Made by a program: the position numbers and the translations under genes
Shown here: in pieces, positions 34,157 through 56,446 of the stretch
How positions within the stretch are numbered: position 1 is the stretch's first letter
How the letters are laid out: every line of letters begins with the position of its first letter
Notes under the pieces: generated by a model
What the model saw: the letters and a program-made list of their open reading frames with translations, nothing else
Databases searched by the model: none
Told to the model about the DNA's origin: nothing
DNA from: an uncultured Clostridia bacterium
GTDB lineage: Bacteria > Bacillota > Clostridia > TANB77 > CAG-508
NCBI GenBank assembly: GCA_944390285.1
Contig: CALXPN010000003.1
Location: 114,285 to 178,284, forward strand
DNA length: 64,000 nucleotides
Direction of reading: 5' to 3'

Positions 34157-36511
34157 TTATGTTTCTTCTATAATCTCATATCCAGCAATCTTATATCCTT
34201 TTATTCTTCTAAAATACATTTTTTCTAAAACTTTCATATTATCCAAATAATCATAAACAATTACTTTACTTTTATCTTCATGTTCTCGGTGAAGTCTTCC
34301 TACATATTGCAAGATTCTTCCTTTCCATGAAACTGGCATAGTCAAAAATAGTGTATCTAATCTACTATCATCAAAACCTTCTCCTATAGAACTACTTGTC
34401 GCCAATATTATTCTTGGTTTATTATTTTTATCAGCTTCATCAATAATGTCTCGAATTTCTTTTGCTTTTTTCTTTCCTATTGCTCCTTTATAAATAACAA
34501 CTGGAATGTTCATACCGTCTAATCCTTCTTTTAATATTTTCAAATGTTCTACCCTTTCTGTTAAAACAATAGGAATTCTACCCTCTAAAACACATCTCTT
34601 TATATCTTGAACTATCATATTATTCCTAAATATATTATGACACATGTCATTTAGGATTTCTGAAATTTGTATTTTGTCTTTTTCTTCAGTAGAAATATAT
34701 TTATAACCTGTACTCTTTACAATTACTACATGTTCCATTTCTTTATTTTGTTTTAATTCGCGATTTGCTACTCTAACTCTTATGTCTCCACATTGCATAT
34801 AAATAATTTTATGCCATCCATCTTTTCTTGTAGGTGTTGCTGTTAACCCATATACATATTTACTTCTTATAGCTTTCAATACTTTTTCAAAACTAAATGC
34901 TGCAACATGATGACATTCATCTATTATAACAAGCCCATAATCCTTAACTATATCATCTAAATTGTCTTTCTTAGCTAACGATTGAAAACTAGCTACATCT
35001 AATTTACCATTTAAATTTTCTTTACTCGCTCCAATTTGTCCTATTTCTTTTTTATTTATATTTAAAAAATAGGATAACCTTTCTTTCCATTGTTCTAATA
35101 AATTATTTCTATTTACTATAATCAAAGTATTTGTTTTTAACTCTGAAATAATTTTAGCTCCTATAACAGTTTTTCCAAAACCTGTAGTAGCACATAATAT
35201 TCCTGTTTCATATTTTAATAACTCATTTTTTACATTTTCCTGTTTTTTATTTAGTTTTCCTATAAATGTATAATCTGTATTAATTCCTTCCTCTCTTGTA
35301 TCTTTTATAATTAATTTGACATTGCTTTTTTCACATACTTCTTTAATTTTATCTATGCATCCTCTAGGTAATTTTAGAAATCTATCATCTTCCTCAAAAC
35401 AGCTTATGATCCTTGGTGTTTTATATATAGGTAGTCTTAATTTTTGTTTTTCATAAAATTCTGGATTAGTAAAACTAGCCAATCTTTTCAAATAAGATAC
35501 TTCGTTTGGTAACAATTTTAATTTTTTAACATAAATCATATTATCAAATATACATTCTACATTATTTACAAATTTAACTTCTCTTAAATTTTCTTTTTTA
35601 GACAATTCATCATCTTCTATCTGATCCACATCAGGCTCTTTATAATCATCTTCCCTATATTTATTAACAAAATTATAAACATCATCACTTTTAATTCTTT
35701 TTATATTTTCCAAAATTTCAAATTGATTTTTTTCTGGCTCAAAATATTTATTTACAAAAACTGTATTTCCACTCTTGCTACTTCCCCCCTGAAAAGGTAA
35801 GGCTATTAGATTGCCAAATCCACCCTTAGGCATTGTATCCTGGTTTGGAAATAACCTATCATATGAGTCCAAATCCAATGATTCTTTCTCCATCGTTTTT
35901 GTTAAAAGAATATTTCCCATTTTTCTAGCAATATTTGCTGGCATGCTTTCTTCAAAAAATATCCATACATGCGCTCCATTTCCAGATCGCGATTTTTCAA
36001 CATATATTGGTATATTTAGTTCATCACATATATTCCAAAATGCTAATACATCTTTCTCATAAGTCTTTTTATCAAAATCTATTGCTAGAAAATTACATAA
36101 ATCTCCCGGTAATAATGGGTAAATTCCGATTGTTATTTTTCCTTGTAAATGTTTTAATATAACATTTTCTGTTAAAGGTTGTAACTCTCTAAAACCACAA
36201 TTATTGCATTTAACTCTTGGTTTATCACATTTATATGTATTAAATTCATTTATACATACTGGTGAATACCCTGATTTTCCTGTTGTACTACTTGTCCACC
36301 TTTTTGCATAAATATCTATCCTCCCTTTAAATATTTCCATAAATATTTTTATTTTTTCTTCAGTTGAAATAGCTTTTGTTTCTTTAATTATTTCTTTTTC
36401 TTCTACTTTTCTGTCTAAATTCCCATACAATTTTTCTTTTAGTTCTTTATTTTCTTTTTCTAATTCTTTTAATCTTTCTATTAATTCTTTTTTTCCTAAT
36501 TTTTCTAACAA
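34157..36511 (-). CDS. archaeo-eukaryotic-primase (PrimPol)-like domain fused to an SF2 DEAD/DEAH helicase (784 aa)
   Basis: N-terminal AEP motifs DFD, SGNGAHVWIFF and ALPF; Cys-rich zinc-ribbon CDKPRVKCNNCG; helicase Walker A TTGFGKTVIGAKII and Walker B IIDECHH; helicase C-terminal block. Confidence 0.7.
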   Translation of the reverse strand: MLEKLGKKELIERLKELEKENKELKEKLYGNLDRKVEEKEIIKETKAISTEEKIKIFMEIFKGRIDIYAKRWTSSTTGKSGYSPVCINEFNTYKCDKPRVKCNNCGFRELQPLTENVILKHLQGKITIGIYPLLPGDLCNFLAIDFDKKTYEKDVLAFWNICDELNIPIYVEKSRSGNGAHVWIFFEESMPANIARKMGNILLTKTMEKESLDLDSYDRLFPNQDTMPKGGFGNLIALPFQGGSSKSGNTVFVNKYFEPEKNQFEILENIKRIKSDDVYNFVNKYREDDYKEPDVDQIEDDELSKKENLREVKFVNNVECIFDNMIYVKKLKLLPNEVSYLKRLASFTNPEFYEKQKLRLPIYKTPRIISCFEEDDRFLKLPRGCIDKIKEVCEKSNVKLIIKDTREEGINTDYTFIGKLNKKQENVKNELLKYETGILCATTGFGKTVIGAKIISELKTNTLIIVNRNNLLEQWKERLSYFLNINKKEIGQIGASKENLNGKLDVASFQSLAKKDNLDDIVKDYGLVIIDECHHVAAFSFEKVLKAIRSKYVYGLTATPTRKDGWHKIIYMQCGDIRVRVANRELKQNKEMEHVVIVKSTGYKYISTEEKDKIQISEILNDMCHNIFRNNMIVQDIKRCVLEGRIPIVLTERVEHLKILKEGLDGMNIPVVIYKGAIGKKKAKEIRDIIDEADKNNKPRIILATSSSIGEGFDDSRLDTLFLTMPVSWKGRILQYVGRLHREHEDKSKVIVYDYLDNMKVLEKMYFRRIKGYKIAGYEIIEET

Positions 36512-36752: not shown

Positions 36753-36807
36753 AAGTGGGCAATTTGAATTTTATAATTATTCATTTTGCTCACTTTATTT
36801 ATAAATT
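36753..36807. terminator. hairpin terminator, copy 2 (aaataaagtgggcaa...ttgctcactttattt)
   Basis: Stem-loop downstream of the AlbA_2 gene, sharing 25 nt with 34114-34138. Confidence 0.5.
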
Positions 36808-36850
36808 CTGCAGTGTTCTCTGCAGAGCTCTGCAGAATTCTCTGCAGAAA
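36806..36850. repeat. four CTGCAG hexamer palindromes at 10-12 bp spacing (tctgcag tgt tctctgcaga gc tctgcaga att ctctgcaga)
   Basis: Direct reading; contains PstI/SacI/EcoRI-like sites in a row; lies between the AlbA_2 gene stop and its terminator. Confidence 0.5.
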
Positions 36851-36941: not shown

Positions 36942-38390
36942 TTATTGTTTTTGAAATTTATATTTTGTTCCTTCAGCCTTAATAATAAGATTCAAATCTA
37001 AAAGTAAAGAAATTAAATTAGTCGCCCTTGTATCTTTTATATTTAAAATGTTCTTTATATCCTCCCTAGAAAACATATTATTGTAACCCATTTTTTCAAA
37101 AATATTTCTTATTTGATTTATTGTACTATTTCTAATATTTGTATTTTGTATACTTTTATATAACTGTATAAAAAATAAATCCCTATCTGAAACAATATTT
37201 TTATTTTCATCCGTTTCATTTGTTTTATAATAGCCCTTATTAGGAAATATTACTGTAAATGATAGAGAATCAGAAATAAATTTTGGTTTTTGAATAGAAT
37301 CATTATAGCTCTCCAATATTCTACTTAATCCACTTCCTCTACGATCCATGTAATGTAATCTACTGAAAACATCTGCAATTACAATATTCCTTCTCATAGA
37401 TGGAATATTTTTTATCTCTAGATTTTGAATAAGACTGCCATCAAACATTCCTCCTGGTGAAGTAATTTCTAATCTATCATCAAACATATCTATATGAATT
37501 TCTGCGCCTAAAATCTGATAATCTCTGTGAATTAATGCATTTACTATTGCTTCCCTACGAGCAGTAATAGGATATTCCTCTAGTTCTTGTCTTTCCATTC
37601 CTACAACTTTCCAGGACATTTTAGAATTATTTTTTATAAAAGAATCTGCATTCTCTAATAATGCTATAATACTTCCATTATATTCCTTATCATCAATTGC
37701 ATCTTCTGCTATTATTCCCTTATTTAATCCTTTCCACCTAGTACATACAATTTTAGACTGCTTTAAGGGATTTTGGTCACTTAATAATAGTCCTGCATTT
37801 GTTAGTTCTTTTTCAGTGTTAGCTAATCCCAAAGAAAAAAAATCTTTATTTTCATCAAATTTTTTATTCGTTTTTTCTTTTATAGTCGCTGCTAGCAAAG
37901 TAAAACTTAAATCATTAATTTTATAATCTGTTGGTAATGCATCAAATGTTAAATTTTTTCCTTTTAATATAAGATTATTTAATATATGCTCTGGAGCGGG
38001 TATACTTTGATTTCCAGAACGAATAAAAGCTTCTTTTCTTCCATCTATTACTAAATAATAAGGAGTTGACGGTCCATCTCCTATTTTTAATTCTAAAAAA
38101 TCTTTTCCATTTTCAGTAAAAGAATTTATTTCATATCTAGGTAATGGTAAAATTCTAGCATTTATAATTTCAGTGATTTTTTCAGCTACTTGTTGAACAT
38201 TATCTAATCCTTCTAGTTCATGTGTACTGTCATCCACTCCGAATAAAATGATTCCACCTTTTGAATTAGCAAATGCTGATACTGATTTTAGCCAACTTTT
38301 AGGTCTTTTTTCTTCTAATGCAATTTTATAATCAATATTACTTGTCTCTGCTTTTTCATAATCTTTTATCTTCAAATTATATACCTCCAC
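36942..38390 (-). CDS. AlbA_2 (Schlafen-like divergent AAA) + HATPase_c_4 domain protein (putative ATP-dependent DNA-binding/defence-associated regulator)
   Basis: N-terminal KSWLKSVSAFANSKGGIILFGVDD block typical of the AlbA_2 'putative DNA-binding' domain; C-terminal HRDYQILGAEIHIDMFDDRLEITSPGG is a GHKL-type ATPase-like block. Confidence 0.6.
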   Translation of the reverse strand: MEVYNLKIKDYEKAETSNIDYKIALEEKRPKSWLKSVSAFANSKGGIILFGVDDSTHELEGLDNVQQVAEKITEIINARILPLPRYEINSFTENGKDFLELKIGDGPSTPYYLVIDGRKEAFIRSGNQSIPAPEHILNNLILKGKNLTFDALPTDYKINDLSFTLLAATIKEKTNKKFDENKDFFSLGLANTEKELTNAGLLLSDQNPLKQSKIVCTRWKGLNKGIIAEDAIDDKEYNGSIIALLENADSFIKNNSKMSWKVVGMERQELEEYPITARREAIVNALIHRDYQILGAEIHIDMFDDRLEITSPGGMFDGSLIQNLEIKNIPSMRRNIVIADVFSRLHYMDRRGSGLSRILESYNDSIQKPKFISDSLSFTVIFPNKGYYKTNETDENKNIVSDRDLFFIQLYKSIQNTNIRNSTINQIRNIFEKMGYNNMFSREDIKNILNIKDTRATNLISLLLDLNLIIKAEGTKYKFQKQ

Positions 38391-39699: not shown

Positions 39700-40047
39700 C
39701 TATGTTATTCTTCTCTTAAATAATTGCCTAATTCGTTCAAATATACATTTTTTATTATTTTTTTGTTGGTAGTTTTCTAACCATTCAACATTATTATCTG
39801 TTATATAATAATGTGACCTACATGGTATATTAAAGTTTCCTATTGATGGTCTAAGTGTAATAGATTGTCCATCATATTTCATTATCCATCCATATTTTTT
39901 ATCTATTGGTGTTACAGTTTTTTCACCACATCCACATGCACATCTATGCACAATAACATTGCAGCTAAGGCACACATACAATATACCATTCTTTAAGTTT
40001 AAAGGAACTTTATCAACAAATTCAACTTTAAATTTATTAATCTTCAT
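39700..40047 (-). CDS. small Cys-rich zinc-ribbon protein (115 aa) partnered with the E2/E1 fusion; DUF6527-like
   Basis: CLSCNVIVHRCACGCGE...PCRSH; 11-nt overlap with the upstream E2/E1 gene, suggesting translational coupling. Confidence 0.5.
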   Translation of the reverse strand: MKINKFKVEFVDKVPLNLKNGILYVCLSCNVIVHRCACGCGEKTVTPIDKKYGWIMKYDGQSITLRPSIGNFNIPCRSHYYITDNNVEWLENYQQKNNKKCIFERIRQLFKRRIT

Positions 40048-41197
40048 GTACTATTTCTCCCATTTCTATTGAATAAACATTTTGACATTTACTATTAGCA
40101 TTTTCGTATATATTAAAATATTTTTTCCACTCAATAACAGCTATTGTTGCATTTAGAGCATTGCATTCTGCAATTTGAATATTTGTATTATATACATCGT
40201 CTCCATCCTCGTCAAAATCAATATATGTAGAAATTCTATCATAATTATTTTTGTCAAACACAGTAGTTCTTATCAGTCCATTTATAGTATCATTTATATT
40301 TTGTAATCCTATTCCAGTATCTATAAATGGTATTTTTTCTGATACAAGGTAATCTACTATTAAATTCCTTGCTATTCCTGAATCAATGCTTATAAATACA
40401 AAATCCATATCTTTTAATATATTGACATTTTCTTCATTAATAAATATGTCATGCTCTATTATATTCTTATACATATTTTGATATATTTCTTTAAAGTAGC
40501 ATACTTTTGATAAACTTTTTGTAAATATTTCTTTACTTGCTGCTCCTGGACTTCTAAAAGCATTATGTTGACAAAATACATCTCCATCAATCAAATGTAT
40601 TTCTTTGACATTAGTTTTTGAAACTAAATCAAGTATATATGTTCCAGTTCCTCCAAGTCCAATAATTGCTATTTTTTTATCTAATATTTTTTTATTGCAA
40701 TTATCAATTCCAGCCCTTGAAGAATTTGTGTCTACATATTGAAATACTGAATCTTCTTCTGTCACCACTTTTTTAAATGTTCTTGCCGTTACTGAATTAT
40801 CTTTATCTATAGCTCTAGAAGAAATTATGTTTATATAATTCACAAATTTTTCATAATAGTCTTTATAATTTTCATTTGGTTTATTTGAAAATGAGCGTTT
40901 TACATTTATTCCAGCCAAAATCGAATTGCTGACACTATGCTTTATTTGCTTGATTTCTGTACCATCTGCATTACAAGGTTGATCTCCTGAAAAATATATA
41001 ACATGGTCTCCATTATATTTAGCCTTATCACCTTCAAACGCAATTTTTGACACTAACGTACCATAATCTATTTCTCCATTTGCTTTCAAGTATGGAATAT
41101 GGGAAACAATCCCATATCCACTTTTTACATCTATTTCATATCCTTCATTCTGAAGTTTTTTTAAGTCATCACTATGATTTATTAGTTCTTGTGACAT
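40037..41197 (-). CDS. E2-like/E1 (ThiF/MoeB-type adenylyltransferase) fusion protein of a bacterial ubiquitin-like conjugation system
   Basis: C-terminal Rossmann block KKIAIIGLGGTGTYILDLV...IHLIDGDVFCQHNAFR (ThiF nucleotide-binding and Arg motif); candidate catalytic Cys in AECNAL; ~170-aa N-terminal extra domain with a conserved Cys (DQPCNADG), consistent with an E2-like fold. Confidence 0.65.
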   Translation of the reverse strand: MSQELINHSDDLKKLQNEGYEIDVKSGYGIVSHIPYLKANGEIDYGTLVSKIAFEGDKAKYNGDHVIYFSGDQPCNADGTEIKQIKHSVSNSILAGINVKRSFSNKPNENYKDYYEKFVNYINIISSRAIDKDNSVTARTFKKVVTEEDSVFQYVDTNSSRAGIDNCNKKILDKKIAIIGLGGTGTYILDLVSKTNVKEIHLIDGDVFCQHNAFRSPGAASKEIFTKSLSKVCYFKEIYQNMYKNIIEHDIFINEENVNILKDMDFVFISIDSGIARNLIVDYLVSEKIPFIDTGIGLQNINDTINGLIRTTVFDKNNYDRISTYIDFDEDGDDVYNTNIQIAECNALNATIAVIEWKKYFNIYENANSKCQNVYSIEMGEIVHED

Positions 41198-43157: not shown

Positions 43158-46100
43158 TTATTTCTTATATTCTTCCTCTTCCTCAGCAACCATTGCTAAA
43201 TTATTATTATTTTCTTCATCTGTAATATCATATTGTATATCATTATTTCCATCTTCATTTGAACTATTTATTCCAAAATACTTTTCAAAGAATTTCTTTA
43301 TCTTATCAATTATCGTTTGTTTCTTTTCTGCTCTATTGCCTCCTCCAAATCTTCTCATTGGTGGTAATATTTTTTCTATATCTGTACCTGTTGTTTTAAC
43401 TTCTCCATCTCTAAAGGAATTATCTAAGAATTTTCTTGTTTCTTTCTCATTTAAGTTTTCTTCCTTAATCAAATTTTCTAAATCTATTTCTTTTTGTTGT
43501 TTTACAAATTTAGCCCAATCTTTATAAACATTTGTATCTGCATTTATCTTTGAAATGAATTTGTCTATCAACTCTTTCTTTGAACGAAGTGCTAAACTTG
43601 ATTTTATTGCTTTCTCAATAGAACCTAATATTTCTTTATCTTCGCAATTTGAATCATGGTATTTAGCTACTAACATCAAAATATAATCTATATTTACTTC
43701 TACTTGCTTTACAAGTTCCATTTCAAATACTATATCTTCTTTAATACTTTCCTCTTCTTCTGGTCTTGATTTGTATTCTTCATATAAGTCAGTATATGTT
43801 CCAATATAGTCTTGAAAATCTCTTTCTGATAATATTTCATTTCCTGCAAATTTATCAAATGAAGATAATATGTTTCTAAGTCTTAAAATATTTCCCATTA
43901 GTACAATAAAGTCTTTCTTATTTTGTTCTCCTATTATCTGCACTCCTAAAGGATATTTTTGTATCAACATAGCTATTCTTTCTTCATACCCTATATGTTT
44001 TCTTCCTTTATCATCTTCATATCCATAATAATAATCTTCATAAGATTTTAATAATACGATTCCCTTTGCATTTTTATCTCCAAATAATGCAATAGCATCA
44101 TTTGTGGCTTCTTCTAAATCTCTAAAGCATACAATATTTCCATAAGCTTTTACAGAATTTAATATACGATTTGTTCTTGAATATGCTTGTATCAATCCAT
44201 GTTGTTTTAAGTTTTTATCTACCCATAGCGTATTTAATGTTGTTGCATCAAATCCCGTCAAAAACATATTTACTACTATTAGCAAATCCACTTCTCTATT
44301 TTTTACCCTATCGGATAAGTCTTTATAATAGTCTTGGAATCCATTCCCCTCTGATGAAAAATTTGTTTTAAATTTCTTATTATATTCCCCTATAGCAAAA
44401 TCTAAAAACTCTTTTGAACTTTGATCTAGTAAGTCTGTTTCAAATTCTTCATCTTCTAATATTCCATTACTATTATCTTCCTCATTAGGTGCATATGAAT
44501 ATATTGTTGCAATGGTCAAATCTTTATGTTTTTCTTCTAATTGTTTTTTGAACTCTAAATAATATTTTTTAGCCATTGGAATTGAACTTACAGCAAATAT
44601 TGAGTTAAATCCATTTACTCTTTGTCCCTTTAAATCATAGAATGAATTTCTTTTTGTTTTTTGGTCAAAATGGTCTATTATATATTCTACTATTTTACTT
44701 ACTCTTTCATGTGATGACAACGCTTCTTCTGTATTTATTGCTGCTACTTCTTTATCTGTCATTCCCTCTTTTTCTTTTACTGTATTTACATAGTCTATTC
44801 TAAATGGTAATACATTTCCATCATTAATTGCATCAACGATTGTATATGTATGTAATTTATCACCAAAAGCTTGCTCTGTTGTGCAAAAATTTGGATTTGA
44901 TTTATTTACAGCATTTTTGGCAAATATTGGAGTTCCTGTAAATCCAAACAAATGATAATTTTTAAAATTCTTAACTATCATCTGGTGCATGTCACCAAAT
45001 TGAGAACGATGGCATTCATCAAATATCAATACTAAATGTTTTTGATATGCTGGATGATTTTTATTTCTTTTTGCAAATTCGCTAAGTTTTTGTATTGTTG
45101 TAACTATAATTCTTGATGTCTCATCTTCTAATTGTTTTTGTAAAATCTTTGTATTTCTATTTCCATTTGCTGCACCTTTTTGAAATCTATCATATTCTTT
45201 CATTGTTTGATAATCTAAGTCTTTTCTATCTACAACAAACAGAACTTTATCTATATAATCTAAATTTGTTGCAAGTTGTGCTGTTTTAAATGATGTAAGT
45301 GTTTTCCCTGAACCTGTTGTATGCCATATATATCCACCTGCTTCAATGGTACCCATCTTTTTATAATTTGTAGAAACTTCTATTCTATTTAAAATTCTTT
45401 CTGTTGCAACTATTTGATAAGGTCTCATTACAAGTAACATGTTCTCTGATGTAAATACACAATATTTGGTTAATATATTTAATATTGTATGTTTTGAAAA
45501 GAATGTTCTTGTAAAATCAACCAAATCATGAATTATCTTATTATTACTATCTGCCCAATAAGAGGTAAATTCAAAACTATTACTTGTTTTTTTGCTTTTA
45601 TTTCTAGTACAATTCTTTTCTTTTACATGATTTTCTCTTGTTGTATTTGAATAATATTTTGTATTTGTACCATTAGAAATCACAAATATTTGTACATATT
45701 CATAAAGTCCACTTCCTGCCCAATAACTTTCTTTTTGATATCTATTTATTTGATTAAATGCTTCTTTTAAAGCAACTCCTCTTCTTTTTAATTCTATATG
45801 TACTAATGGAAATCCGTTTACAAGTATTGTTACATCATATCTATTTTTATAACTTCCATCTTTTTCTTCATATTGATTTATAACTTGTAGTCTATTATTA
45901 TGAATACATTTTTTATCTATTAATGTAATATTTTTACTTGTTCCATCATCTCTTTTTAGTACCTGAATATTATCTTCTTGTATCTTTCTTGTTTTTTCAA
46001 CTATTCCATCATTATTATTACAAATATTATCATTAAAGAATTTTTCCCATTCACTATCTGTGAATGTATATTTATTTAATAATTCTAATTGTTTACGCAA

Positions 46101-46286
46101 ATTTCTTATAAGTGTATTAGAATCGTGTATTTGTAAATAATCATAGCCTTGTTCTTGTAGCATTTCTATAAATTCTTTTTCTAATTCTGCTTCACTTTGA
46201 TATGAATCAGAACGTTTTTGCATTGGCTTATATTCAGTTACTACTGTTGAATTACTCATTTCCATTACTACATTATATTTACTCAT
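43158..46286 (-). CDS. hsdR: type I restriction enzyme R subunit
   Basis: 1042 aa; Walker A HTTGSGKTLTS; DEAD-box IFDECHRSQ; typical HsdR N-terminal nuclease region. Confidence 0.9.
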   Translation of the reverse strand: MSKYNVVMEMSNSTVVTEYKPMQKRSDSYQSEAELEKEFIEMLQEQGYDYLQIHDSNTLIRNLRKQLELLNKYTFTDSEWEKFFNDNICNNNDGIVEKTRKIQEDNIQVLKRDDGTSKNITLIDKKCIHNNRLQVINQYEEKDGSYKNRYDVTILVNGFPLVHIELKRRGVALKEAFNQINRYQKESYWAGSGLYEYVQIFVISNGTNTKYYSNTTRENHVKEKNCTRNKSKKTSNSFEFTSYWADSNNKIIHDLVDFTRTFFSKHTILNILTKYCVFTSENMLLVMRPYQIVATERILNRIEVSTNYKKMGTIEAGGYIWHTTGSGKTLTSFKTAQLATNLDYIDKVLFVVDRKDLDYQTMKEYDRFQKGAANGNRNTKILQKQLEDETSRIIVTTIQKLSEFAKRNKNHPAYQKHLVLIFDECHRSQFGDMHQMIVKNFKNYHLFGFTGTPIFAKNAVNKSNPNFCTTEQAFGDKLHTYTIVDAINDGNVLPFRIDYVNTVKEKEGMTDKEVAAINTEEALSSHERVSKIVEYIIDHFDQKTKRNSFYDLKGQRVNGFNSIFAVSSIPMAKKYYLEFKKQLEEKHKDLTIATIYSYAPNEEDNSNGILEDEEFETDLLDQSSKEFLDFAIGEYNKKFKTNFSSEGNGFQDYYKDLSDRVKNREVDLLIVVNMFLTGFDATTLNTLWVDKNLKQHGLIQAYSRTNRILNSVKAYGNIVCFRDLEEATNDAIALFGDKNAKGIVLLKSYEDYYYGYEDDKGRKHIGYEERIAMLIQKYPLGVQIIGEQNKKDFIVLMGNILRLRNILSSFDKFAGNEILSERDFQDYIGTYTDLYEEYKSRPEEEESIKEDIVFEMELVKQVEVNIDYILMLVAKYHDSNCEDKEILGSIEKAIKSSLALRSKKELIDKFISKINADTNVYKDWAKFVKQQKEIDLENLIKEENLNEKETRKFLDNSFRDGEVKTTGTDIEKILPPMRRFGGGNRAEKKQTIIDKIKKFFEKYFGINSSNEDGNNDIQYDITDEENNNNLAMVAEEEEEYKK

Positions 46287-46289
46287 AAC

Positions 46290-47494
46290 TTACTCCTTAT
46301 TTTCTACTTTTAATTCTTTGAAATTTAATAATTTATCTCTATAATATTCATATTGCTTTTGTCTTGCCTCTATTTCAGCAGGTAACCCCTCTGAAATATC
46401 ATTAGTTAATTTTTCAAATTTATCTAAAATTTCTACTATTTTTTGTTGAATCTCCAACGGAATCATTGGCACAGCAAATTCATTTAGCATAGGCTTTCTA
46501 ATAGAAGTAACAGATGAATTAAAAGATCTTTCCATTATATATTTGTAAAATTTAGCTTTCATATAATAATACACAAATTCTGTACTAAATTCGTTATTTA
46601 AAATATGTATTCTATATGCTCTTTGATGTAGTGCGTACTTTCCATTTATTAAATGAAATATCTTTCCGACTCCTACGCCATCACCAGAAGTAATTATTGC
46701 TTTTTCATCAAATTCATAAGTATCTTTATATCTAACTATAGGAGAACGAACATAAAAAGGGTATTTACCAATTTTTAATTCTTCGTTTGTATTACTGCTA
46801 CCTGTTCCTATTTCAGCAATATCTATTAATTTTATATATTCTATTTTTTGTCTATAGAAGTATCCGTGTGTGTGTGTGTGTGTACAGCGCCAAAGGTTTC
46901 ATTGTTTTCAAAATTTAATAGTTTGTCTCTATAATATTCATATTGTTTTTGTCGAGCTTTCAACTCGGCTGAAAGCTCGGCTGAAAGCTCGGCTGAAAGC
47001 TCGGCTGAAAGTAAGATGAAATCGTCCAAAACATGGACAATTTCATCTTGTACCTCCAACGGAGGTACAGCAATCTGAAGCTTTCTAAAATCACCCTGAT
47101 TTAATTTTGGTATATTTCCATGAATTAAACTTGTTACATTAATTGTTTGAATATAATGATATAAATATCTTAAAGAAACTCCTTCTATTTCTTCAATAAT
47201 ATGTGCATGATTATTTACCCATATTTTTCCTTCAGCCCATGTTACTATCGGATTTCCATTTTCATTTATAACAGAACCATCTTCTCCAACTAATACATAT
47301 TTTCCATCAAATATGTAGTCAGCTACATAATCTTGAATTCCATTAGCTCCGTAATATGGATATTCTCCTGCTTTTCTTGCAGACTTTGTAACAGGTTTCC
47401 TTTTATTATCTAATATGTTACAGCATTTTTCCAAATCTAAAAATTTTACACCATTTGGACATTTATTTTTTATTAAATCATCAATTCTTCCCAT
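46290..47494 (-). CDS. hsdS: type I R-M specificity subunit, split into two reading frames at a (GT)9 tract (TRD1+central region 46841..47494; TRD2+distal region 46290..~46898)
   Basis: Upstream ORF ends ...ARQKQYEYYRDKLLNFENNETFGAVHTHTHTDTSIDKK*. Downstream frame is open from 46898 and ends with the repeated conserved block EARQKQYEYYRDKLLNFKELK. The two frames differ by one, so (GT)8 or (GT)11 would fuse them. Confidence 0.8.
46866..46883. repeat. (GT)9 dinucleotide tract at the hsdS TRD1/TRD2 junction
   Basis: gtgtgtgtgtgtgtgtgt read directly; both hsdS frames are open across it. Confidence 0.9.
46964..47011. repeat. 4 x 12-bp tandem repeat (ctcggctgaaag) encoding SAEL x4 in the hsdS central conserved region
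   Basis: Direct reading; encodes LSAELSAELSAELSAEL, analogous to the TAEL spacer repeats of EcoR124I/II. Confidence 0.9.
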
Positions 47495-47495
47495 T

Positions 47496-49055
47496 TTACA
47501 CCTCTATCTCTGCAATTATTTTAGCTATTTCAATACGAAGTTTATTTTCTCTCTCAACAATTTCATCTATTTCTTTGTTTAATTCAACAATATCAATTTT
47601 TTCTCTTATATCTTCTTTTTCTACATAAGTTGCAACTGATAAATTATAATCATTTTGGGCAATTTCTTCATTCAATACTATTTTTGCAATATGTTCCTTA
47701 TCCACTCTATTTTTAAATATCTCTATAATATTATTTATATTTTCATCTGTTAATTTATTATTATTTGTTACCTTAACACATTCATTTGTTGCATCTATAA
47801 ATAATGTGCTATTATCTTTTTTACTTTTCTTTAATACCATTATACAAGTTGCTATACTTGTTCCAAAGAATAAATTATCAGGTAATTGAATAATACAATC
47901 TACAAAGTTATTATCAATTAAGTATCTTCTTATTTTTTGTTCTGCTCCACCTCTATATAAAATTCCAGGAAAACATACTATTGATGCAGTACCATTAGTT
48001 GCTAACCAAGATAAAGAGTGCATTATAAATGCAAAGTCTGCTTTTGATTTAGGCGCTAATATTCCTGCTGGAGAATATCTTGGATCATTTATTAGAAGTG
48101 GATTATCGTTTCCAGCCCATTTAATAGAATATGGTGGATTTGATACTATTACTTCGAATGGTTCATCATCCCAATGTTGTGGATTAGTTAATGTATCTTC
48201 ACAAGCTATATCAAATTTATCATACCCTATATCATGTAAAAACATATTTATTCTACATAAATTATATGTAGTTAAATTTATTTCTTGTCCATAAAAACCG
48301 TTTCTTACATTTTCTTTTCCTAGTATTTTAGCAGATTTTAAAAGTAATGAACCTGATCCACAAGCTGGATCATATACTTTATTAACAGATTTTTTACCTA
48401 CTACTGCAAGTCTTGTTAGTAATTCACTTACCTCTTGAGGTGTAAAAAATTCTCCTCCTGACTTTCCTGCATTTGATGCATACATAGACATTAAATATTC
48501 ATAAGCATCACCAAACGCATCTATTAAATTATCTTTATAATTATTTAATTTAATATCTGCAATACCGTTTAATATTTTTACCAATTTATCATTTCTTTTA
48601 GCTACTGTTGCTCCTAATTTATTACTATTTACATCTATATCGTCAAATAATCCTGCAAAATCTTCTTCACTTTCTGCTCCTTTTGCAGAATTTTCTATAT
48701 CATTAAATACTCTTTCTAACGTTTCATTTAAGTTTTCATCATTTTTTGCCCTTTTACAAACATTGCAAAATAATTCTGAAGGTAATATAAAAAATCCTTT
48801 TTCTTTTACTAATTCTTCTCTTTGTGTTTCTGCAATTTCATCTGGTAATTTTGTATAATCAAAATCTTTATCTCCAGCTTTTCTTTCTCCTTCATTTATA
48901 TAATCTGTTATATTTTCTGAAATATATCTATAAAACATCATTCCCAATATATATTGTTTAAAGTCCCATCCGTCAACAGAACCTCTCAAATCATCAGCTA
49001 TTGCCCATATCTTTTTGTGTAATTCTTCTCTTTCTCTCGTATTTTTGTTATCCAT
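47496..49055 (-). CDS. hsdM: type I R-M N6-adenine DNA methyltransferase subunit
   Basis: HsdM N-terminal domain; SAM motif DPACGSGSLL; catalytic NPPY (VSNPPYSIKW). Confidence 0.9.
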   Translation of the reverse strand: MDNKNTREREELHKKIWAIADDLRGSVDGWDFKQYILGMMFYRYISENITDYINEGERKAGDKDFDYTKLPDEIAETQREELVKEKGFFILPSELFCNVCKRAKNDENLNETLERVFNDIENSAKGAESEEDFAGLFDDIDVNSNKLGATVAKRNDKLVKILNGIADIKLNNYKDNLIDAFGDAYEYLMSMYASNAGKSGGEFFTPQEVSELLTRLAVVGKKSVNKVYDPACGSGSLLLKSAKILGKENVRNGFYGQEINLTTYNLCRINMFLHDIGYDKFDIACEDTLTNPQHWDDEPFEVIVSNPPYSIKWAGNDNPLLINDPRYSPAGILAPKSKADFAFIMHSLSWLATNGTASIVCFPGILYRGGAEQKIRRYLIDNNFVDCIIQLPDNLFFGTSIATCIMVLKKSKKDNSTLFIDATNECVKVTNNNKLTDENINNIIEIFKNRVDKEHIAKIVLNEEIAQNDYNLSVATYVEKEDIREKIDIVELNKEIDEIVERENKLRIEIAKIIAEIEV

Positions 49056-51081: not shown

Positions 51082-51948
51082 CTATAATCTTTTTCCATTG
51101 CATTCCACTCTATAGCACATATTAGATAATCTTGATATTATAGAATCTGTTGTTTTACATACTTTGTTCGGTATGCTTAATCTTTGTTTTAGATCTTCCA
51201 TATTATAATTTGTTGTTATAATAAATGGTAGCTCATTTATCAATCTTTCATTTATAATTGTAAATAATTTAGACAACAACCAATCATTCATTGGTTCTAC
51301 TCCTAAATCATCTATAACTAATAAATCTACTTTTGTATATAATTTTGTTAATTCACTTTCTGTATGATTCTTATAACATATAGCATACTTTTCCACTAAT
51401 TGTGTCAATGTTCCAAATATTACTGGTACATTATTTTTTAATAATTCATTACATATCGCCATTGAAATATGTGTTTTTCCTGTTCCATTTTTTCCTACAA
51501 ATATAATTCCTTTTTTCATATTATTAAAATCCGTTAAAAATTTTTGAGCTGCTAATTTTGTTTTTAGATTTTGCTCGTCTGTAATAAAATTCTCCAAAGT
51601 CTTTTGTTTAAATTGTTTTGTTATAAATTCTGTTCCATAATATTGTTTAATCTTTTTGTTGTATTCTTCTTTTCTATAATTCTCATATTGTTTCATCAAT
51701 TCTTCTTGCAGTTTTTCTTTTGCCTTATTTCTTTCTTCTATTGCCTGTTTACAATCACATTTTTCATTTTCTATAAATACATTTATAGTTTTATTTATTG
51801 GATTTAATATTCCTCTTGGTTTCAAAACTTTATTACAATATTTGCATCTAGTTTCTTTAGGTATATTTGCTTTTATTGGATAACCATTTCGCAAGATTTC
51901 TTCTAAACTATATAAAGTCTTTGATTTTTCCATAACTCTTTTCTCCAT
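51082..51948 (-). CDS. DnaC/IstB-like AAA+ helicase-loader protein with N-terminal zinc finger
   Basis: Walker A IFVGKNGTGKTHISMAI; Walker B DLLVIDDLG; N-terminal CKYCNK...CDCKQ. Confidence 0.7.
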   Translation of the reverse strand: MEKRVMEKSKTLYSLEEILRNGYPIKANIPKETRCKYCNKVLKPRGILNPINKTINVFIENEKCDCKQAIEERNKAKEKLQEELMKQYENYRKEEYNKKIKQYYGTEFITKQFKQKTLENFITDEQNLKTKLAAQKFLTDFNNMKKGIIFVGKNGTGKTHISMAICNELLKNNVPVIFGTLTQLVEKYAICYKNHTESELTKLYTKVDLLVIDDLGVEPMNDWLLSKLFTIINERLINELPFIITTNYNMEDLKQRLSIPNKVCKTTDSIISRLSNMCYRVECNGKRL

Positions 51949-52384
51949 CTTCTACACCTCCTTCTGTTTTTATTTCTTTTTTTAATTCTTTTTCTCTTTC
52001 TATATCCACATTTTTTACATCTTTTGTGGAATCCTTTTTAGTATGTAAGCCTTTCTCCTGTAGATTTTGATACTTATTCCAATTTTTTATTTTATAGCCA
52101 TATTCATCTTGTATAATCATGCTATATTCCTGAAAAATATCTAGTGCATTCTCGATACTTTTCTGATTTCTACCCATATGATGTGCTAATGTTTCTATGG
52201 TAAAAAACTTGTTTTCACTTATTTTTAAATATCCTCCAGATTCACAATTTGCTGCTATTGCTAAACAATTTATAAAAATTACAATAAGCCTATCTCCATC
52301 TTTTTTTCTTTTAATTTGTTTGATTTTTTCATTGTCAAAAAAATTGTTGTAAAACTTAAACCAATATCTTTTTCCTCCTTTCAC
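51908..52384 (-). CDS. phage replisome-organiser/DnaD-like N-terminal domain protein
   Basis: 158 aa, basic, directly upstream of the DnaC-like gene with a 41-nt overlap. Weak family-level resemblance only. Confidence 0.4.
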   Translation of the reverse strand: MKGGKRYWFKFYNNFFDNEKIKQIKRKKDGDRLIVIFINCLAIAANCESGGYLKISENKFFTIETLAHHMGRNQKSIENALDIFQEYSMIIQDEYGYKIKNWNKYQNLQEKGLHTKKDSTKDVKNVDIEREKELKKEIKTEGGVEDGEKSYGKIKDFI

Positions 52385-52660: not shown

Positions 52661-52766
52661 ACTATCACCTCCTTCTTTATTCTCATTATGCGTACATAAT
52701 ATAATATTTTATTTGTTTTGTAAATACTTTTTTTGAGATTTTTTATGATTATTTTAGTTTTAAATG

Positions 52767-52795
52767 TTTACAAATAGTATTTTATTGTATATAAT
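52767..52795 (+). promoter_or_regulatory. near-consensus sigma-A promoter for the repressor gene (TTTACA-17 nt-TATAAT)
   Basis: tttaca at 52767-52772 and tataat at 52790-52795 with 17-nt spacing; RBS GAGGGGG at 52809 and ATG at 52827. Confidence 0.55.
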
Positions 52796-52826
52796 GTCCT
52801 TAATTAGTGAGGGGGAAATTTTTACA

Positions 52827-53807
52827 ATGGATAAGTTTAATTTTGGTAATCGTTTGAAACAATTGCGTAAATCATATGGTATTACACAAGCACAATTAGC
52901 AGAAAATTTAAATGAAAGAAGGGCTACTTTATCAAATTACGAAAATAAGAATGTGTATCCAGGATTTAATATGTTAATAAAATTGGCTGATTATTTTCAT
53001 GTTTCTGTTGATTACTTAACAGGAAGAACTGATGATTATGAAGTCAATAAACATGATAAAGAAGATACTTTTTATTGGGTTAAAATTTCTAAACCAATAC
53101 CTTATGAAAAAAATAAATATGGAATTTATGCTTTATCTAATGATACTGATATTGAATTTTATGATTTATCAGATTTGAAGAAAAAATATACTAGAATTTA
53201 TTTGCCTTTTTTAGGATGTGCACCTGATGCTAAATCTCATTTAAAAGAATGTTATGATTTTTTATCTGAATTTGGATTTTTAGGTGGTACTGAATATAAT
53301 GACCAGTATTTAAATGTTTCTATGTTTAAAAAACAATGGCCTGGAATTTATAAAATAAACAATGAATTTAATATTTCTACTATGGATTTTTTAGTAAATT
53401 TAGTTATGATGGATCCTAATCTATTTAGTAGTTCAAAAGAAGAAAAGGCTTTTGCTAAAGAGCATTCACTAATGGGCTATAGAGAAACAATTCATGATGT
53501 TGAATATTTAGCAACAGAAATGAAATCATTAGTAACTATTTTTTTACTTTACCCTAGTATATTTATATCTAGAACAAATGAGAAACTTAGAGGTATTAAC
53601 TTCTATTATGATAATTCTTATAAAAGAAGGTTTACTTTTACTTCTCTTCTTTCTTATATGTATTATGAACTAATAGAAGATTATATTAATGGGGATTATC
53701 CTTATAAATGCAATAAATGTAATAAATATTTTTTATCTAGAATAAAGGATAATCCTGAATTACCACATATTTGTGATGATTGTAAAAAACAAGGAGGTTC
53801 ATTATGA
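52827..53807 (+). CDS. XRE/cI-like repressor with C-terminal Cys-cluster domain
   Basis: HTH_XRE block FGNRLKQLRKSYGITQAQLAENLNERRATLSNYENK; C-terminal CNKCNKYF...HICDDCKK. The track ORF starts at 52764 inside the promoter; the start has been moved to the ATG at 52827, which has an RBS. Confidence 0.7.
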   Translation: MDKFNFGNRLKQLRKSYGITQAQLAENLNERRATLSNYENKNVYPGFNMLIKLADYFHVSVDYLTGRTDDYEVNKHDKEDTFYWVKISKPIPYEKNKYGIYALSNDTDIEFYDLSDLKKKYTRIYLPFLGCAPDAKSHLKECYDFLSEFGFLGGTEYNDQYLNVSMFKKQWPGIYKINNEFNISTMDFLVNLVMMDPNLFSSSKEEKAFAKEHSLMGYRETIHDVEYLATEMKSLVTIFLLYPSIFISRTNEKLRGINFYYDNSYKRRFTFTSLLSYMYYELIEDYINGDYPYKCNKCNKYFLSRIKDNPELPHICDDCKKQGGSL

Positions 53808-54820: not shown

Positions 54821-54858
54821 TATGTCTTCCCTACCACATGAAAGGAGGTGATGAAGGT

Positions 54859-56046
54859 GTGGTAGGAAATATCGAAAAACGTGGAGAGAATTCTTACAGA
54901 TTAAGAGTTTCTGGTGGATATACAGGAGAAGGAAAAAGAATTATTTATAAAAAGACAGTTCAAGCAAAAAATAAAAATGAAGCTAGAAAAGAATTAGCAT
55001 TATTTATATCAGAAATAGAAACTGGACAAGCTTTATCTGCTAAAAAGATGCGTTTTAGAGATTATGCTGATTTTTGGATTAACAATTATGCTATTCCAAA
55101 TTTATCTCCTAAGACTTATGAAAGATATAAAAGTATGTTAAAATCAAGAATTCTCCCCTATCTCGGCAACATGTATTTAGACAAAATTCAACCAATGCAA
55201 TTAATGTATTTATATCAAGAATTGAGTGAGGCAACTTATATTAGAAAAAATATCAAACATAAGTTATCTTCAAAAACTGTACTGGAACATCATAGATTAT
55301 TACATACAATGTTACAACAAGCTGTATATTGGCAAATGATTCCATATAATCCTGCATCAAGAGTAAGACCACCTAAAGCTAAAAAGCCAAATATTAATTT
55401 CTATGATGATGTACAAACAATAGCATTAATTAAAGCATTGGAAGGCGAAGAATTAAAGTTTCGAGTCATTATTCTATTAACAATCTTTACAGGATTAAGA
55501 CGTGGAGAAGTTTTAGGATTAGAATGGCAAGATGTAGACTTTAAGAATTCTTCAATCACTGTAAGACAGGCTAGTCAATATGTTTCTTCCATTGGTATCT
55601 ATACAAAAGGTCCCAAAACAGAAACATCAAACAGGGTTATTAGTATCCCTATCTCAATTACTAAACTTTTAAAAGCTTACAAAAGAAAACAGTTAGAACA
55701 AAGATTAAAATTAGGAGACAAATGGCAAAACACAAATCGATTATTTGTGCAATGGGATGGCTCTCCTATGCATCCAGACACAATTACAAAATGGTTTAGG
55801 CAGTTCCTAGAAGATAAAAACTTGCCACATATTACATTTCATGGCTTACGCCATACACATGCAACTTTGCTTATTGCACAAGGATTAGATGTTAAAACTG
55901 TTAGTAATAGACTTGGACATGCTCAAACATCTACAACATTAAATATCTATGCCCATGCGTTTGCGAAAATGGACAGAGAGGCATCAGATAAACTTGATAA
56001 TCTTCTTTATAGAGAAGATACAAAAAAATATTTTAAAGCCAATTAG
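54859..56046 (+). CDS. int: tyrosine-type site-specific integrase
   Basis: C-terminal catalytic box HGLRHTHATLLIAQGLDVKTVSNRLGHAQTSTTLNIYAH and upstream R (TGLRRGEV). The probable start is the GTG at 54859, 10 nt after AAAGGAGG; the track ATG at 54838 lies inside the RBS region. Confidence 0.85.
   Translation: MVGNIEKRGENSYRLRVSGGYTGEGKRIIYKKTVQAKNKNEARKELALFISEIETGQALSAKKMRFRDYADFWINNYAIPNLSPKTYERYKSMLKSRILPYLGNMYLDKIQPMQLMYLYQELSEATYIRKNIKHKLSSKTVLEHHRLLHTMLQQAVYWQMIPYNPASRVRPPKAKKPNINFYDDVQTIALIKALEGEELKFRVIILLTIFTGLRRGEVLGLEWQDVDFKNSSITVRQASQYVSSIGIYTKGPKTETSNRVISIPISITKLLKAYKRKQLEQRLKLGDKWQNTNRLFVQWDGSPMHPDTITKWFRQFLEDKNLPHITFHGLRHTHATLLIAQGLDVKTVSNRLGHAQTSTTLNIYAHAFAKMDREASDKLDNLLYREDTKKYFKAN

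Positions 56047-56370: not shown

Positions 56371-56446
<76 letters not shown>

What the first reader, a model, noticed from the sequence alone, without database searches (positions are those of the whole stretch)
46964..47011. Four tandem SAEL-encoding 12-bp repeats in the hsdS central conserved region
The HsdS spacer between TRD1 and TRD2 contains ctcggctgaaag x4, encoding (LSAE)4. In EcoR124I versus EcoR124II, a change from two to three TAEL repeats at the equivalent position changes the spacer of the recognition sequence from N6 to N7. Copy-number change by slippage here would alter target specificity independently of the (GT)n on/off switch. That gives two stacked variation mechanisms in one gene.
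Basis: partly seen in the sequence, partly recalled or inferred. Interest (0 to 1): 0.55.

Follow-up and report, generated by a model that had tools for sequence, protein, structure and literature searches.

The report
Spacer-length repeat in a restriction specificity gene
A perfect four-copy 12-base repeat sits in the helix that sets the distance between the two DNA-reading domains of a type I restriction enzyme's specificity subunit. Near-identical strains carry two copies instead of four, so this is a real but already well-known kind of specificity dial.

Summary
Positions 46964-47011 hold (CTCGGCTGAAAG)x4, a perfect repeat. On the minus strand it reads (CTT TCA GCC GAG)x4 = (LSAE)4, inside the central conserved helix of an hsdS gene. 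The hsdM-hsdS-hsdR operon belongs to the EcoR124 (type IC) family.

The repeat aligns exactly with the TAEL repeats of EcoR124, with two extra units. Three metagenome contigs differ from the window by one substitution over 2.77 kb of hsdM+hsdS. Apart from that they differ only at this repeat (2 versus 4 units) and at the neighbouring (AC)n tract (13-14 versus 9). Among 57 close relatives, 52 have 2 perfect copies, 3 have two units with one substituted, and 2 have 1 copy. Only the window has 4. Across 263 wider relatives the helix length comes in steps of 4 residues (5/9/13/17), and the window (21) lies outside that range.

The (GT)9 tract is probably not an on/off switch. It leaves a 217-aa half-subunit (TRD1 plus helix), a form that is active as a homodimer in EcoR124I, EcoDXXI and NgoAV. 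The pairing of a tetrapeptide repeat with a downstream frameshift tract is already documented in gonococcal NgoAV.

Verdict: a real feature and a new member of a known kind. The effect on specificity is inferred, not shown.

The parts
46964..47011 (-). Perfect tandem repeat (CTTTCAGCCGAG)x4 in gene sense, encoding (LSAE)4, residues 162-177 of HsdS. It is the tetra-amino-acid spacer module of the central conserved helix.
   Evidence: TRF, shuffle control, codon view, alignment to the EcoR124 TAEL repeats.
46916..47059 (-). Central conserved region (CCR): one continuous predicted alpha-helix, residues 146-193, containing the repeat and the ARQKQYEYYRDKLLNF motif.
   Evidence: AlphaFold2 model with helix 146-193 and pLDDT 93-95 over residues 141-190. 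Fold matches are all HsdS subunits.
47060..47494 (-). Target recognition domain 1 (TRD1) of HsdS, residues 1-145.
   Evidence: Pfam Methylase_S PF01420, E=1e-46; structure model.
46866..46883 (-). (AC)9 dinucleotide tract, (GT)9 on the plus strand, in the linker after the CCR. It sets the reading frame of TRD2. n = 8, 11 or 14 gives the full-length protein. n = 9 gives a stop at 46841.
   Evidence: TRF, frame simulation, tract lengths 9/12/13/14 in related loci.
46841..47494 (-). The open reading frame as it stands: a 217-aa half-HsdS (TRD1 + CCR + short out-of-frame tail ...HTHTDTSIDKK).
46290..46865 (-). TRD2 plus the distal conserved region (DCR, about 46290-46460), out of frame in this strain and lacking a start codon in its own frame until 46574.
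   Evidence: Three-frame translation, ORF list, 76-nt CCR/DCR direct repeat D2.
47496..49055 (-). hsdM (519 aa), EcoR124-type methyltransferase subunit.
   Evidence: Pfam HsdM_N + N6_Mtase. 636 bits to EcoR124 M versus 54 bits to EcoKI M.
43158..46286 (-). hsdR (1042 aa), EcoR124-type restriction/translocase subunit, intact.
   Evidence: Pfam HSDR_N, SWI2_SNF2, T1R_D3-like, EcoR124_C. 919 bits to EcoR124 HsdR.
47013..47049 (-). Hairpin-forming palindrome (16-bp stem, 5-nt loop) immediately 5' of the repeat in gene sense. Role unproven.
   Evidence: Inverted repeat I2, ssDNA folds.
46953..46979 (-). Second hairpin, formed by a unit junction of the repeat and the 3' flank (CGAGCTTTCA / TGAAAGCTCG). 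Role unproven.
   Evidence: Inverted repeats I3-I5, folds.

Best explanation
The repeat is the tetra-amino-acid (here SAEL/LSAE) spacer module of the central coiled-coil helix of a type IC (EcoR124-family) HsdS specificity subunit.

Each 12-bp unit adds four residues, about one helical turn, to the helix that holds the DNA-reading domains apart. In EcoR124I/II, EcoDXXI and NgoAV each added unit lengthens the non-specific spacer of the recognition sequence by 1 bp.

Units are gained and lost by replication slippage or unequal recombination between the identical units. In this lineage the usual state is 2 units. This strain has expanded to 4, which needs at least two steps, in a background otherwise almost identical to 2-unit strains.

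A separate and much more unstable (AC)n tract just downstream sets the frame of TRD2. With (AC)9 this strain makes only a 217-aa TRD1+helix half-subunit. By analogy with EcoR124I-NT, truncated EcoDXXI and NgoAV, two such half-subunits should pair through their repeat-bearing helices. With HsdM (and HsdR) they should recognise a palindromic bipartite target.

The predicted result of 4 units is a target whose spacer is 2 bp longer than in 2-unit relatives in the same frame state.

Shown: the anatomy, the homology, the copy-number polymorphism, and the frame states. Inferred: the slippage mechanism, the activity of the half-subunit, and the +2 bp spacer.
For: Family assignment:
- HsdS matches Pfam Methylase_S, and HsdR carries the EcoR124_C domain.
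- The best solved-structure hit for HsdS is EcoR124 HsdS, E=3e-29. HsdM scores 636 bits and HsdR 919 bits to the EcoR124 subunits.

Position of the repeat:
- LDDFILL-SAELx4-KARQKQY aligns with [12 protein letters not shown]2-NMRKKQY, with an 8-residue gap in the repeat.
- The repeat lies in a confidently predicted continuous helix, residues 146-193.

Copy-number polymorphism:
- Contigs L011, L012 and L014 encode an identical HsdM. Over 2.77 kb of hsdM+hsdS they differ from the window by 1 substitution, a 24-bp indel in the repeat and the (AC)n length. L013 has 3 substitutions.
- One-unit alleles occur in two different backgrounds.
- In related lineages, 3 of 10 clusters at 90% identity hold clean unit-number variants, for example LTAEL x1, x2 and x3 within cluster P0211. 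Two more clusters mix the 13 and 17 spacing classes with differing sequence.

Helix-length pattern:
- CCR length is quantised in steps of 4 residues: 5, 9, 13, 17. The partner DCR helix is fixed at 17 in 152 of 159 sequences.

Unit turnover:
- All units in the window lineage use GCC, and all units in the other lineages use GCA. This is concerted evolution, as expected from repeated gain and loss of units.

(AC)n tract:
- Lengths are 9, 12, 13 and 14 in related loci. Both full-length and truncated alleles are common.

Literature:
- PMC3874165: TAEL 2 versus 3 units gives N6 versus N7; truncated type IC HsdS forms homodimers.
- PMC6789123: in NgoAV the LEAT repeat number and a frameshift jointly set the methylated motif.
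- PMC2877798: residues 1-215 of EcoR124I HsdS dimerise and recognise GAAN7TTC.
Against: - No methylome or activity data exist for this organism.
- Four units is outside the range seen in 263 relatives.
- Four units is very rare in enterobacterial EcoR124-like genes. Of about 965 plasmid records, one clear case was found, and there hsdS is disrupted by IS3. A 4-unit helix may therefore be poorly functional or may relax specificity.
- The gene is frameshifted, so the expansion could have happened under relaxed constraint.
- No 3-unit intermediate was found in this lineage.
- Copy number was read from assemblies, not from reads.
Confidence: 0.7

Rival explanations
1. The 4-unit allele is a neutral or harmful slippage product in a specificity gene that is effectively switched off or decaying. 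It has no working specificity of its own, and the helix is too long to give a defined target.
For: - hsdS is out of frame at (AC)9.
- A CCR spacing of 21 residues is found in none of 263 relatives.
- The one clear 4-TAEL allele among about 965 enterobacterial plasmid records is in an IS3-disrupted hsdS.
- My recollection of Gubler and Bickle 1991 (EMBO J 10:951, not readable here) is that altered repeat numbers relaxed specificity.
Against: - hsdM and hsdR are intact. HsdM is identical in protein sequence to that of in-frame strains.
- Truncated TRD1+CCR alleles are abundant in this lineage, on contigs from many samples.
- Complete natural half-size genes with a DCR-type tail exist (P0137, P0163, P0260).
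- Such half-subunits are active in three studied type IC systems (PMC3874165, PMC2877798, PMC6789123).
- In a homodimer both helices lengthen together, so no CCR/DCR length mismatch arises.
Confidence: 0.2
2. The 12-bp repeat is a fast contingency locus that switches within populations at rates comparable to the (AC)n tract, as the phrase 'two stacked variation mechanisms' implies.
For: - The units are perfectly identical, and two strong hairpins flank the tract.
- A 2 versus 4 difference occurs between strains that differ by one substitution in 2.77 kb.
- Within-cluster copy variants occur in several lineages.
Against: - Of 57 close alleles, 52 have 2 perfect copies, 3 have two units with one substituted, 2 have 1 copy, and only the window has 4. 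The (AC)n tract differs among almost all of them.
- With only 2-4 units of 12 bp, slippage is expected to be much rarer than in a 9-14 unit dinucleotide tract (general knowledge of repeat instability).
Confidence: 0.08
3. The four copies are an assembly or sequencing artefact, and the true sequence has two.
For: The window's own 217-aa product and its HsdR are 'not on record' as called genes in the contig index. The allele could therefore not be cross-checked in an independent assembly.
Against: - A 48-bp array is shorter than a typical read, and assemblers tend to collapse tandem repeats rather than expand them.
- All four units are perfect and in frame.
- The same kind of variation (1, 2, 3 units) is seen in independent assemblies of related lineages.
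Confidence: 0.02

Closest known systems
EcoR124I / EcoR124II (type IC, E. coli plasmid R124)
   Same: Same family: HsdM 636 bits, HsdR 919 bits, HsdS E=3e-29. Both carry a perfect 12-bp tandem repeat encoding a tetrapeptide (TAEL versus SAEL) at the same position of the central conserved helix. Copy number differs between otherwise near-identical alleles.
   Different: EcoR124 has 2 or 3 units and no frameshift tract after the helix. Here the unit is SAEL, the states seen are 1, 2 and 4, and the 4-unit allele sits in a truncated gene. The spacer change is proven for EcoR124 and only inferred here.
NgoAV of Neisseria gonorrhoeae (type IC)
   Same: The same two-layer design. NgoAV has 0-3 LEAT tetrapeptide repeats in the central region plus a downstream simple-repeat frameshift that truncates HsdS after the helix (at about residue 201). 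Together they determine the methylated motif: GACN6TGC, GACN7TGC, GCAN8TGC (PMC6789123).
   Different: The frameshift tract is poly-G in NgoAV and (AC)n here. The tetrapeptide, the TRDs and the host differ. NgoAV's range is 0-3 units, and here 4 is seen.
EcoR124I-NT and truncated EcoDXXI half-subunits
   Same: The product consists of TRD1 plus the central conserved region (217 aa here, residues 1-215 in EcoR124I-NT). That form dimerises to give a palindromic specificity whose spacing follows the repeat number (PMC2877798, PMC3874165).
   Different: Those truncations were engineered or transposon-induced. Here the truncation is set by a reversible dinucleotide tract. Activity was not tested.
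Phase-variable hsdS genes with a simple repeat between the TRDs (survey by Atack et al. 2020, PMC7383803)
   Same: A simple repeat lies immediately after the TAEL(n) coiled-coil. The survey predicts a switch between full-length and TRD1-only HsdS.
   Different: That survey deliberately excluded repeats with units divisible by three, so the 12-bp layer was not analysed. It lists AG[n], GCAA[n] and G[n] examples rather than this (AC)n lineage.

Membership tests
Type IC restriction-modification systems (EcoR124 family) | Three-subunit hsdM-hsdS-hsdR system with HsdM and HsdR much closer to the EcoR124 prototypes than to other type I families | tested here: met
   The order hsdM-hsdS-hsdR lies on the minus strand. 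HsdM scores 636 bits to EcoR124 M versus 54 bits to EcoKI M. HsdR scores 919 bits to EcoR124 HsdR and carries Pfam EcoR124_C.
Type IC restriction-modification systems (EcoR124 family) | [quoted passage not shown] | tested here: met
   (LSAE)4 is aligned to the TAEL repeats of EcoR124. The family trait is stated in PMC10030836 and PMC3874165.
Type IC restriction-modification systems (EcoR124 family) | Central and distal conserved regions similar enough for half-subunits to pair | tested here: met
   A 76-nt direct repeat at 76% identity links CCR and DCR (D2). Both contain ARQKQYEYYRDKLLNF. Only the sequence similarity was tested, not the pairing.
Type IC restriction-modification systems (EcoR124 family) | Subunit complementation or antibody cross-reaction with EcoR124 (the classical family definition) | not testable with these tools
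   Requires genetics or biochemistry.
Repeat-number specificity change (EcoR124I/II type) | Copy number of the 12-bp unit differs between otherwise near-identical hsdS alleles | tested here: met
   2 versus 4 units with 1 substitution in 2.77 kb. One-unit alleles exist.
Repeat-number specificity change (EcoR124I/II type) | The recognition-sequence spacer changes by 1 bp per unit | not testable with these tools
   Needs methylome or cleavage data for 2-unit and 4-unit strains.
Phase-variable hsdS by frameshifting simple repeat (NgoAV type) | Simple repeat with a unit not divisible by 3, of switching length, inside the ORF between the TRDs | tested here: met
   (AC)9 at 46866-46883. Atack et al. 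set a threshold of at least 5 dinucleotide units (PMC7383803).
Phase-variable hsdS by frameshifting simple repeat (NgoAV type) | Tract length varies among strains and gives both in-frame and out-of-frame alleles | tested here: met
   Lengths 9, 12, 13 and 14 in loci. There are 28 full-length and 18 truncated close relatives, with TH runs of 2-11 residues.
Phase-variable hsdS by frameshifting simple repeat (NgoAV type) | The truncated product is active and gives a palindromic specificity | not testable with these tools
   Only the architecture of the product was shown: TRD1 plus the complete helix.

The most novel reading that the evidence does not exclude
The hsdS gene on this mobile element may be a combinatorial specificity generator with more states than any described type I system. 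One layer is a helix-length dial, flanked by conserved hairpins that would promote unit gain and loss, with states 1, 2, 4 and presumably 3. The other layer is a three-state (AC)n frame switch. Its states are full-length HsdS, the N-terminal half alone, and the N-terminal half plus an ATG-initiated C-terminal half. On this reading the 4-unit helix is tolerated or selected specifically in the symmetric half-subunit dimer, where both helices lengthen together. That would give a natural test of how the coiled-coil register sets DNA spacing.
Probability: 0.15. Interest if true: 0.55.

Novelty: new member of a known kind. Interest (0 to 1): 0.33.

Why it matters
The rule that four residues of helix equal one base pair of spacer rests on a few enterobacterial and gonococcal enzymes with 0-3 units. 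How the coiled coil absorbs the change in register is still an open point (stated in PMC3874165).

This lineage offers natural, almost isogenic 2-unit and 4-unit alleles, and also 1-unit alleles in a related (GCA-codon) lineage. All come in both full-length and half-subunit forms, and the lineage is widespread in metagenome samples. Methylomes of these strains would extend the rule beyond three units and into the symmetric dimer.

The locus also fills a gap left by the published survey of phase-variable hsdS genes, which excluded repeats divisible by three. In practice it means that strains with identical hsdM and hsdR genes can still have different methylation targets and different barriers to gene transfer.

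Tried and rejected
1. The single scans of genome contigs and metagenome contigs with CTTTCAGCCGAGTTGAAAGC gave only one chance hit each, in a Bryobacteraceae MAG and a soil contig. The pattern proved too specific: most related lineages use GCA rather than GCC in the unit and CTG rather than TTG after it.
2. A scan of viral contigs with the two-unit pattern found nothing.
3. The third homologue search, with a 56-aa query meant to rank alleles with 3 or more units, returned only short fragments under 100 aa and no 4-unit allele.
4. Exact look-ups of the window's 217-aa product and of its HsdR found no called gene on record. The 4-unit allele could therefore not be confirmed in an independent assembly.
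5. The organism was not identified. The closest hsdM DNA among plasmid records is from Fusobacterium vincentii (75% over 63% of the gene) and Cetobacterium somerae (66%). That is only a hint, together with 26% G+C.
6. Gubler and Bickle 1991, on engineered repeat numbers including four, is not in the library. It is cited from memory only and not used as evidence.
7. I considered whether the plus-strand ORF over the repeat (46870-47019, 49 aa) is a gene. I rejected it as a mirror of the repeat with no support.
8. I looked for a second hsdS copy in the window that could pair or recombine with this one. There is none (tblastn).

Full report
**1. The observation**

Tandem Repeats Finder reports a period-12 array at 46964-47011 with 4.0 copies, 100% identity and score 96. 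That is the highest score among its 119 rows for the window. The unit occurs four times in the window, all in this array. Dinucleotide-preserving shuffles give 0.01 expected matches, and none of 100 reaches four.

**2. What the repeat lies in**

The gene is on the minus strand. The order is hsdM (47496-49055, 519 aa), hsdS (46290-47494) and hsdR (43158-46286, 1042 aa).
- Pfam finds Methylase_S in both halves of HsdS, HsdM_N + N6_Mtase in HsdM, and HSDR_N, SWI2_SNF2, T1R_D3-like and EcoR124_C in HsdR.
- Against solved structures, HsdS hits EcoR124 HsdS best (E=3e-29).
- HsdM scores 636 bits to the EcoR124 M subunit, against 54 bits to EcoKI M.
- HsdR scores 919 bits to EcoR124 HsdR.

This is a type IC system. 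In gene sense the unit is CTT TCA GCC GAG, so the protein reads LDDFIL-(LSAE)4-LKARQKQYEYYRDKLL. phmmer aligns this stretch to [27 protein letters not shown] of EcoR124, with an 8-residue gap placed inside the repeat. The window therefore carries two more units than the two-unit EcoR124I form, at the homologous position. An AlphaFold2 model of the encoded product (mean pLDDT 86.7) places residues 146-193, including the repeat, in one continuous helix with pLDDT 93-95. All of its significant fold matches (E <= 0.001) are HsdS subunits or related specificity modules.

**3. The state of the gene**

The (GT)9 tract at 46866-46883 is (AC)9 in gene sense. It lies in the linker after the helix.
- Simulating tract lengths shows that n = 8, 11 or 14 gives a full-length HsdS of 400-404 aa.
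- n = 9 ends the protein at 217 aa, consisting of TRD1, the complete helix and a short tail.
- In the n = 0 (mod 3) state found here, the TRD2 frame has a stop just upstream of the tract and no start codon until 46574. TRD2 should therefore be silent.
- In the n = 1 (mod 3) state, seen in L013 and L014 with (AC)13, an ATG 24 nt upstream of the tract opens a 206-aa TRD2+DCR ORF. It has no obvious ribosome-binding site.

**4. Comparative test of copy number**

Four metagenome contigs encode an HsdM identical to the window's.
- Over the 2.77 kb of hsdM+hsdS, three of them (L011, L012, L014) differ from the window by a single substitution, a 24-bp indel in the repeat (2 units against 4) and the (AC)n length (14 or 13 against 9). 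L013 has three substitutions.
- A second allele group (P0001, eight contigs, 98.7% identical in hsdS) also has 2 units, with (AC)14.
- Among 57 SAEL-type proteins with at least 85% identity in TRD1, 52 have two perfect units. Three have two units with one point-mutated. Two have one unit (P0249, P0265), in different backgrounds. Only the window has four.
- The DNA of a one-unit allele was checked (L015).

Four units cannot arise from two in a single slippage or unequal-exchange step, so at least two steps are implied (inference). No 3-unit intermediate was found.

**5. The wider family**

In 263 relatives, the number of residues between the LD.F and R..QY anchors of the central helix is quantised: 5 (5 sequences), 9 (21), 13 (190) and 17 (47). 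None has 21, the window's value. The partner distal helix has 17 in 152 of 159 sequences. EcoR124I corresponds to 13.
- Within clusters at 90% identity in related lineages, 3 of 10 clusters hold clean unit-number variants. Cluster P0211, for example, contains one, two and three LTA(E/Q)L units. Two more clusters mix the 13 and 17 spacing classes but with differing sequence.
- In enterobacterial plasmids, a 4xTAEL query finds about 500 records in the identity band expected for 2 units and about 230 in the band for 3. One clear case has 4 units: E. coli plasmid NZ_CP122941.1, with a perfect (CTTACCGCTGAG)x4. Its hsdS is cut by an IS3 element.

Four units is therefore rare in nature, though not unique.

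**6. Evidence for turnover of units**

All units of the window lineage read GCC at the alanine codon. All units of seven other loci representing six other alleles (L015, L016, L017, L022, L024, L025) read GCA. The flanking codons differ as well: TTG AAA GCT CGA against CTG AAA GCA AGA. Units that are identical within a lineage but differ between lineages are the signature of concerted evolution. That is what repeated loss and re-duplication would produce. By contrast, the (AC)n tract differs almost everywhere. It is 9, 12, 13 or 14 in the loci, TH runs span 2-11 residues in proteins, and there are 28 in-frame and 18 truncated close alleles. The 12-bp layer is therefore a slow dial, and the dinucleotide layer is a fast switch.

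**7. How it most likely works**

Established knowledge of type IC enzymes:
- One extra TAEL unit moves EcoR124 from GAAN6RTCG to GAAN7RTCG. Hybrids with EcoDXXI follow the same rule (PMC3874165).
- In NgoAV, 1 versus 2 LEAT units gives GACN6TGC versus GACN7TGC. The frameshift-truncated form gives the palindromic GCAN8TGC (PMC6789123).
- Residues 1-215 of EcoR124I HsdS dimerise and recognise GAAN7TTC (PMC2877798).

By analogy, the window's 217-aa product should form a homodimer through its helix and recognise a palindrome of the TRD1 half-site. Its spacer should be 2 bp longer than in 2-unit truncated relatives. If the tract slips to n = 2 (mod 3), a full-length enzyme with a +2 spacer is predicted. 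These steps are inferred and nothing here measures specificity.

The main rival is that the 4-unit allele is a non-functional by-product in a switched-off gene. Supporting it are the rarity of four units and the IS3-disrupted E. coli parallel. Against it are the intact hsdM and hsdR, the abundance of truncated alleles, and the existence of complete natural half-size genes in this lineage (P0137, P0163, P0260).

**8. Comparison with what is known, and novelty**

The tetrapeptide repeat is a textbook trait of type IC HsdS. Its combination with a downstream frameshift tract has been described experimentally for NgoAV. Atack et al. also noted it, and they left repeats divisible by three unanalysed (PMC7383803).

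New here are the lineage itself (SAEL unit, (AC)n tract, low-G+C host, mobile-element context), a near-isogenic 2 versus 4 pair, and a natural 4-unit allele in a half-subunit state. I rate it a new member of a known kind, with moderate-to-low interest. The homology and the variability are right. 'On/off' and 'independently' are probably wrong, and the design is not new.

**9. Limits**

The organism is unknown (one search gives only a Fusobacteriaceae hint). The 4-unit allele was not seen in a second assembly. No read-level or methylome data were available.

Noticed in passing
window 47013-47049 and 46953-46979: Two strong hairpin-forming palindromes bracket the repeat tract. Upstream is a 16-bp stem coding QDEIVHVLDDFI. 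Downstream is a 10-11-bp stem formed by a unit junction and the 3' flank. ssDNA folds give z = -7.1 and -6.4. Both hairpins persist in eight other loci representing seven alleles, the downstream one in a different register in the GCA lineages. They are absent from the E. coli EcoR124-like gene. They use codons that are G+C-rich for this 26% G+C window (GTC, GAC). They could promote slippage, or they could be a by-product of coding.
   Followed up: partly
L013 2893-3513 (equivalent to window about 46290-46907, minus strand): When (AC)n is 1 (mod 3), an ATG 24 nt upstream of the tract opens a 206-aa ORF covering TRD2 plus the distal conserved region. The tract may therefore have three outputs: full-length, N-half only, and N-half plus C-half. 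No clear ribosome-binding site is present.
   Followed up: partly
window about 20000-56500: The hsd operon sits in what looks like an integrative mobile element carrying a defence island.
- Tyrosine integrase 54838-56046, next to a tRNA at 56374-56446
- Cro/CI-type HTH protein 52764-53807
- Replisome organiser plus IstB/DnaC-like ATPase 51082-52384
- VirB4-like conjugation ATPase 20993-22987
- PrimPol-helicase 34157-36511
- E1/ThiF-like protein 40037-41197, with a DUF6527 protein 39700-40047
- A protein at 36942-38390 with weak matches to pAgo and SIR2-associated models

Related loci have relaxase or MobC genes next to hsdM.
   Followed up: partly
window 36807-36848: Four closely spaced copies of the palindrome CTGCAG (TCTGCAGA-like) lie in an intergenic region between the genes at 34157-36511 and 36942-38390. 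The array looks like an operator or iteron.
   Followed up: no
L020 (E. coli plasmid NZ_CP122941.1, 24085-24270): This EcoR124-family hsdS has four perfect TAEL units (CTTACCGCTGAG x4). It is the only clear 4-unit case among about 965 plasmid records. Its TRD2 is interrupted by an IS3 transposase, so it too is a 4-unit allele in a truncated gene.
   Followed up: partly
proteins P0008-P0011, P0015-P0018, P0034-P0053 and others (relatives, about 560-617 aa): Many relatives are 'extended' HsdS proteins carrying three conserved helices, and therefore apparently three TRDs. This resembles the three-TRD HsdS class mentioned by Atack et al. (PMC7383803).
   Followed up: no
proteins P0137, P0163, P0260 (relatives, about 194 aa): These are complete natural half-size hsdS genes: TRD1 plus a helix ending in the distal-type tail (…KLLTFKELKVNE). 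A deletion between the 76-nt CCR/DCR direct repeat (window 46321-46396 and 46911-46986) would produce this form.
   Followed up: partly
relatives: The central-helix length is quantised in steps of four residues (5/9/13/17), while the distal helix is almost always 17. The most common state (13) is therefore one turn shorter than its partner helix, and the window's 21 is one turn longer.
   Followed up: yes
window 24269-27450: A run of seven small minus-strand ORFs of 111-137 aa each lies downstream of the conjugation genes. They were not characterised.
   Followed up: no
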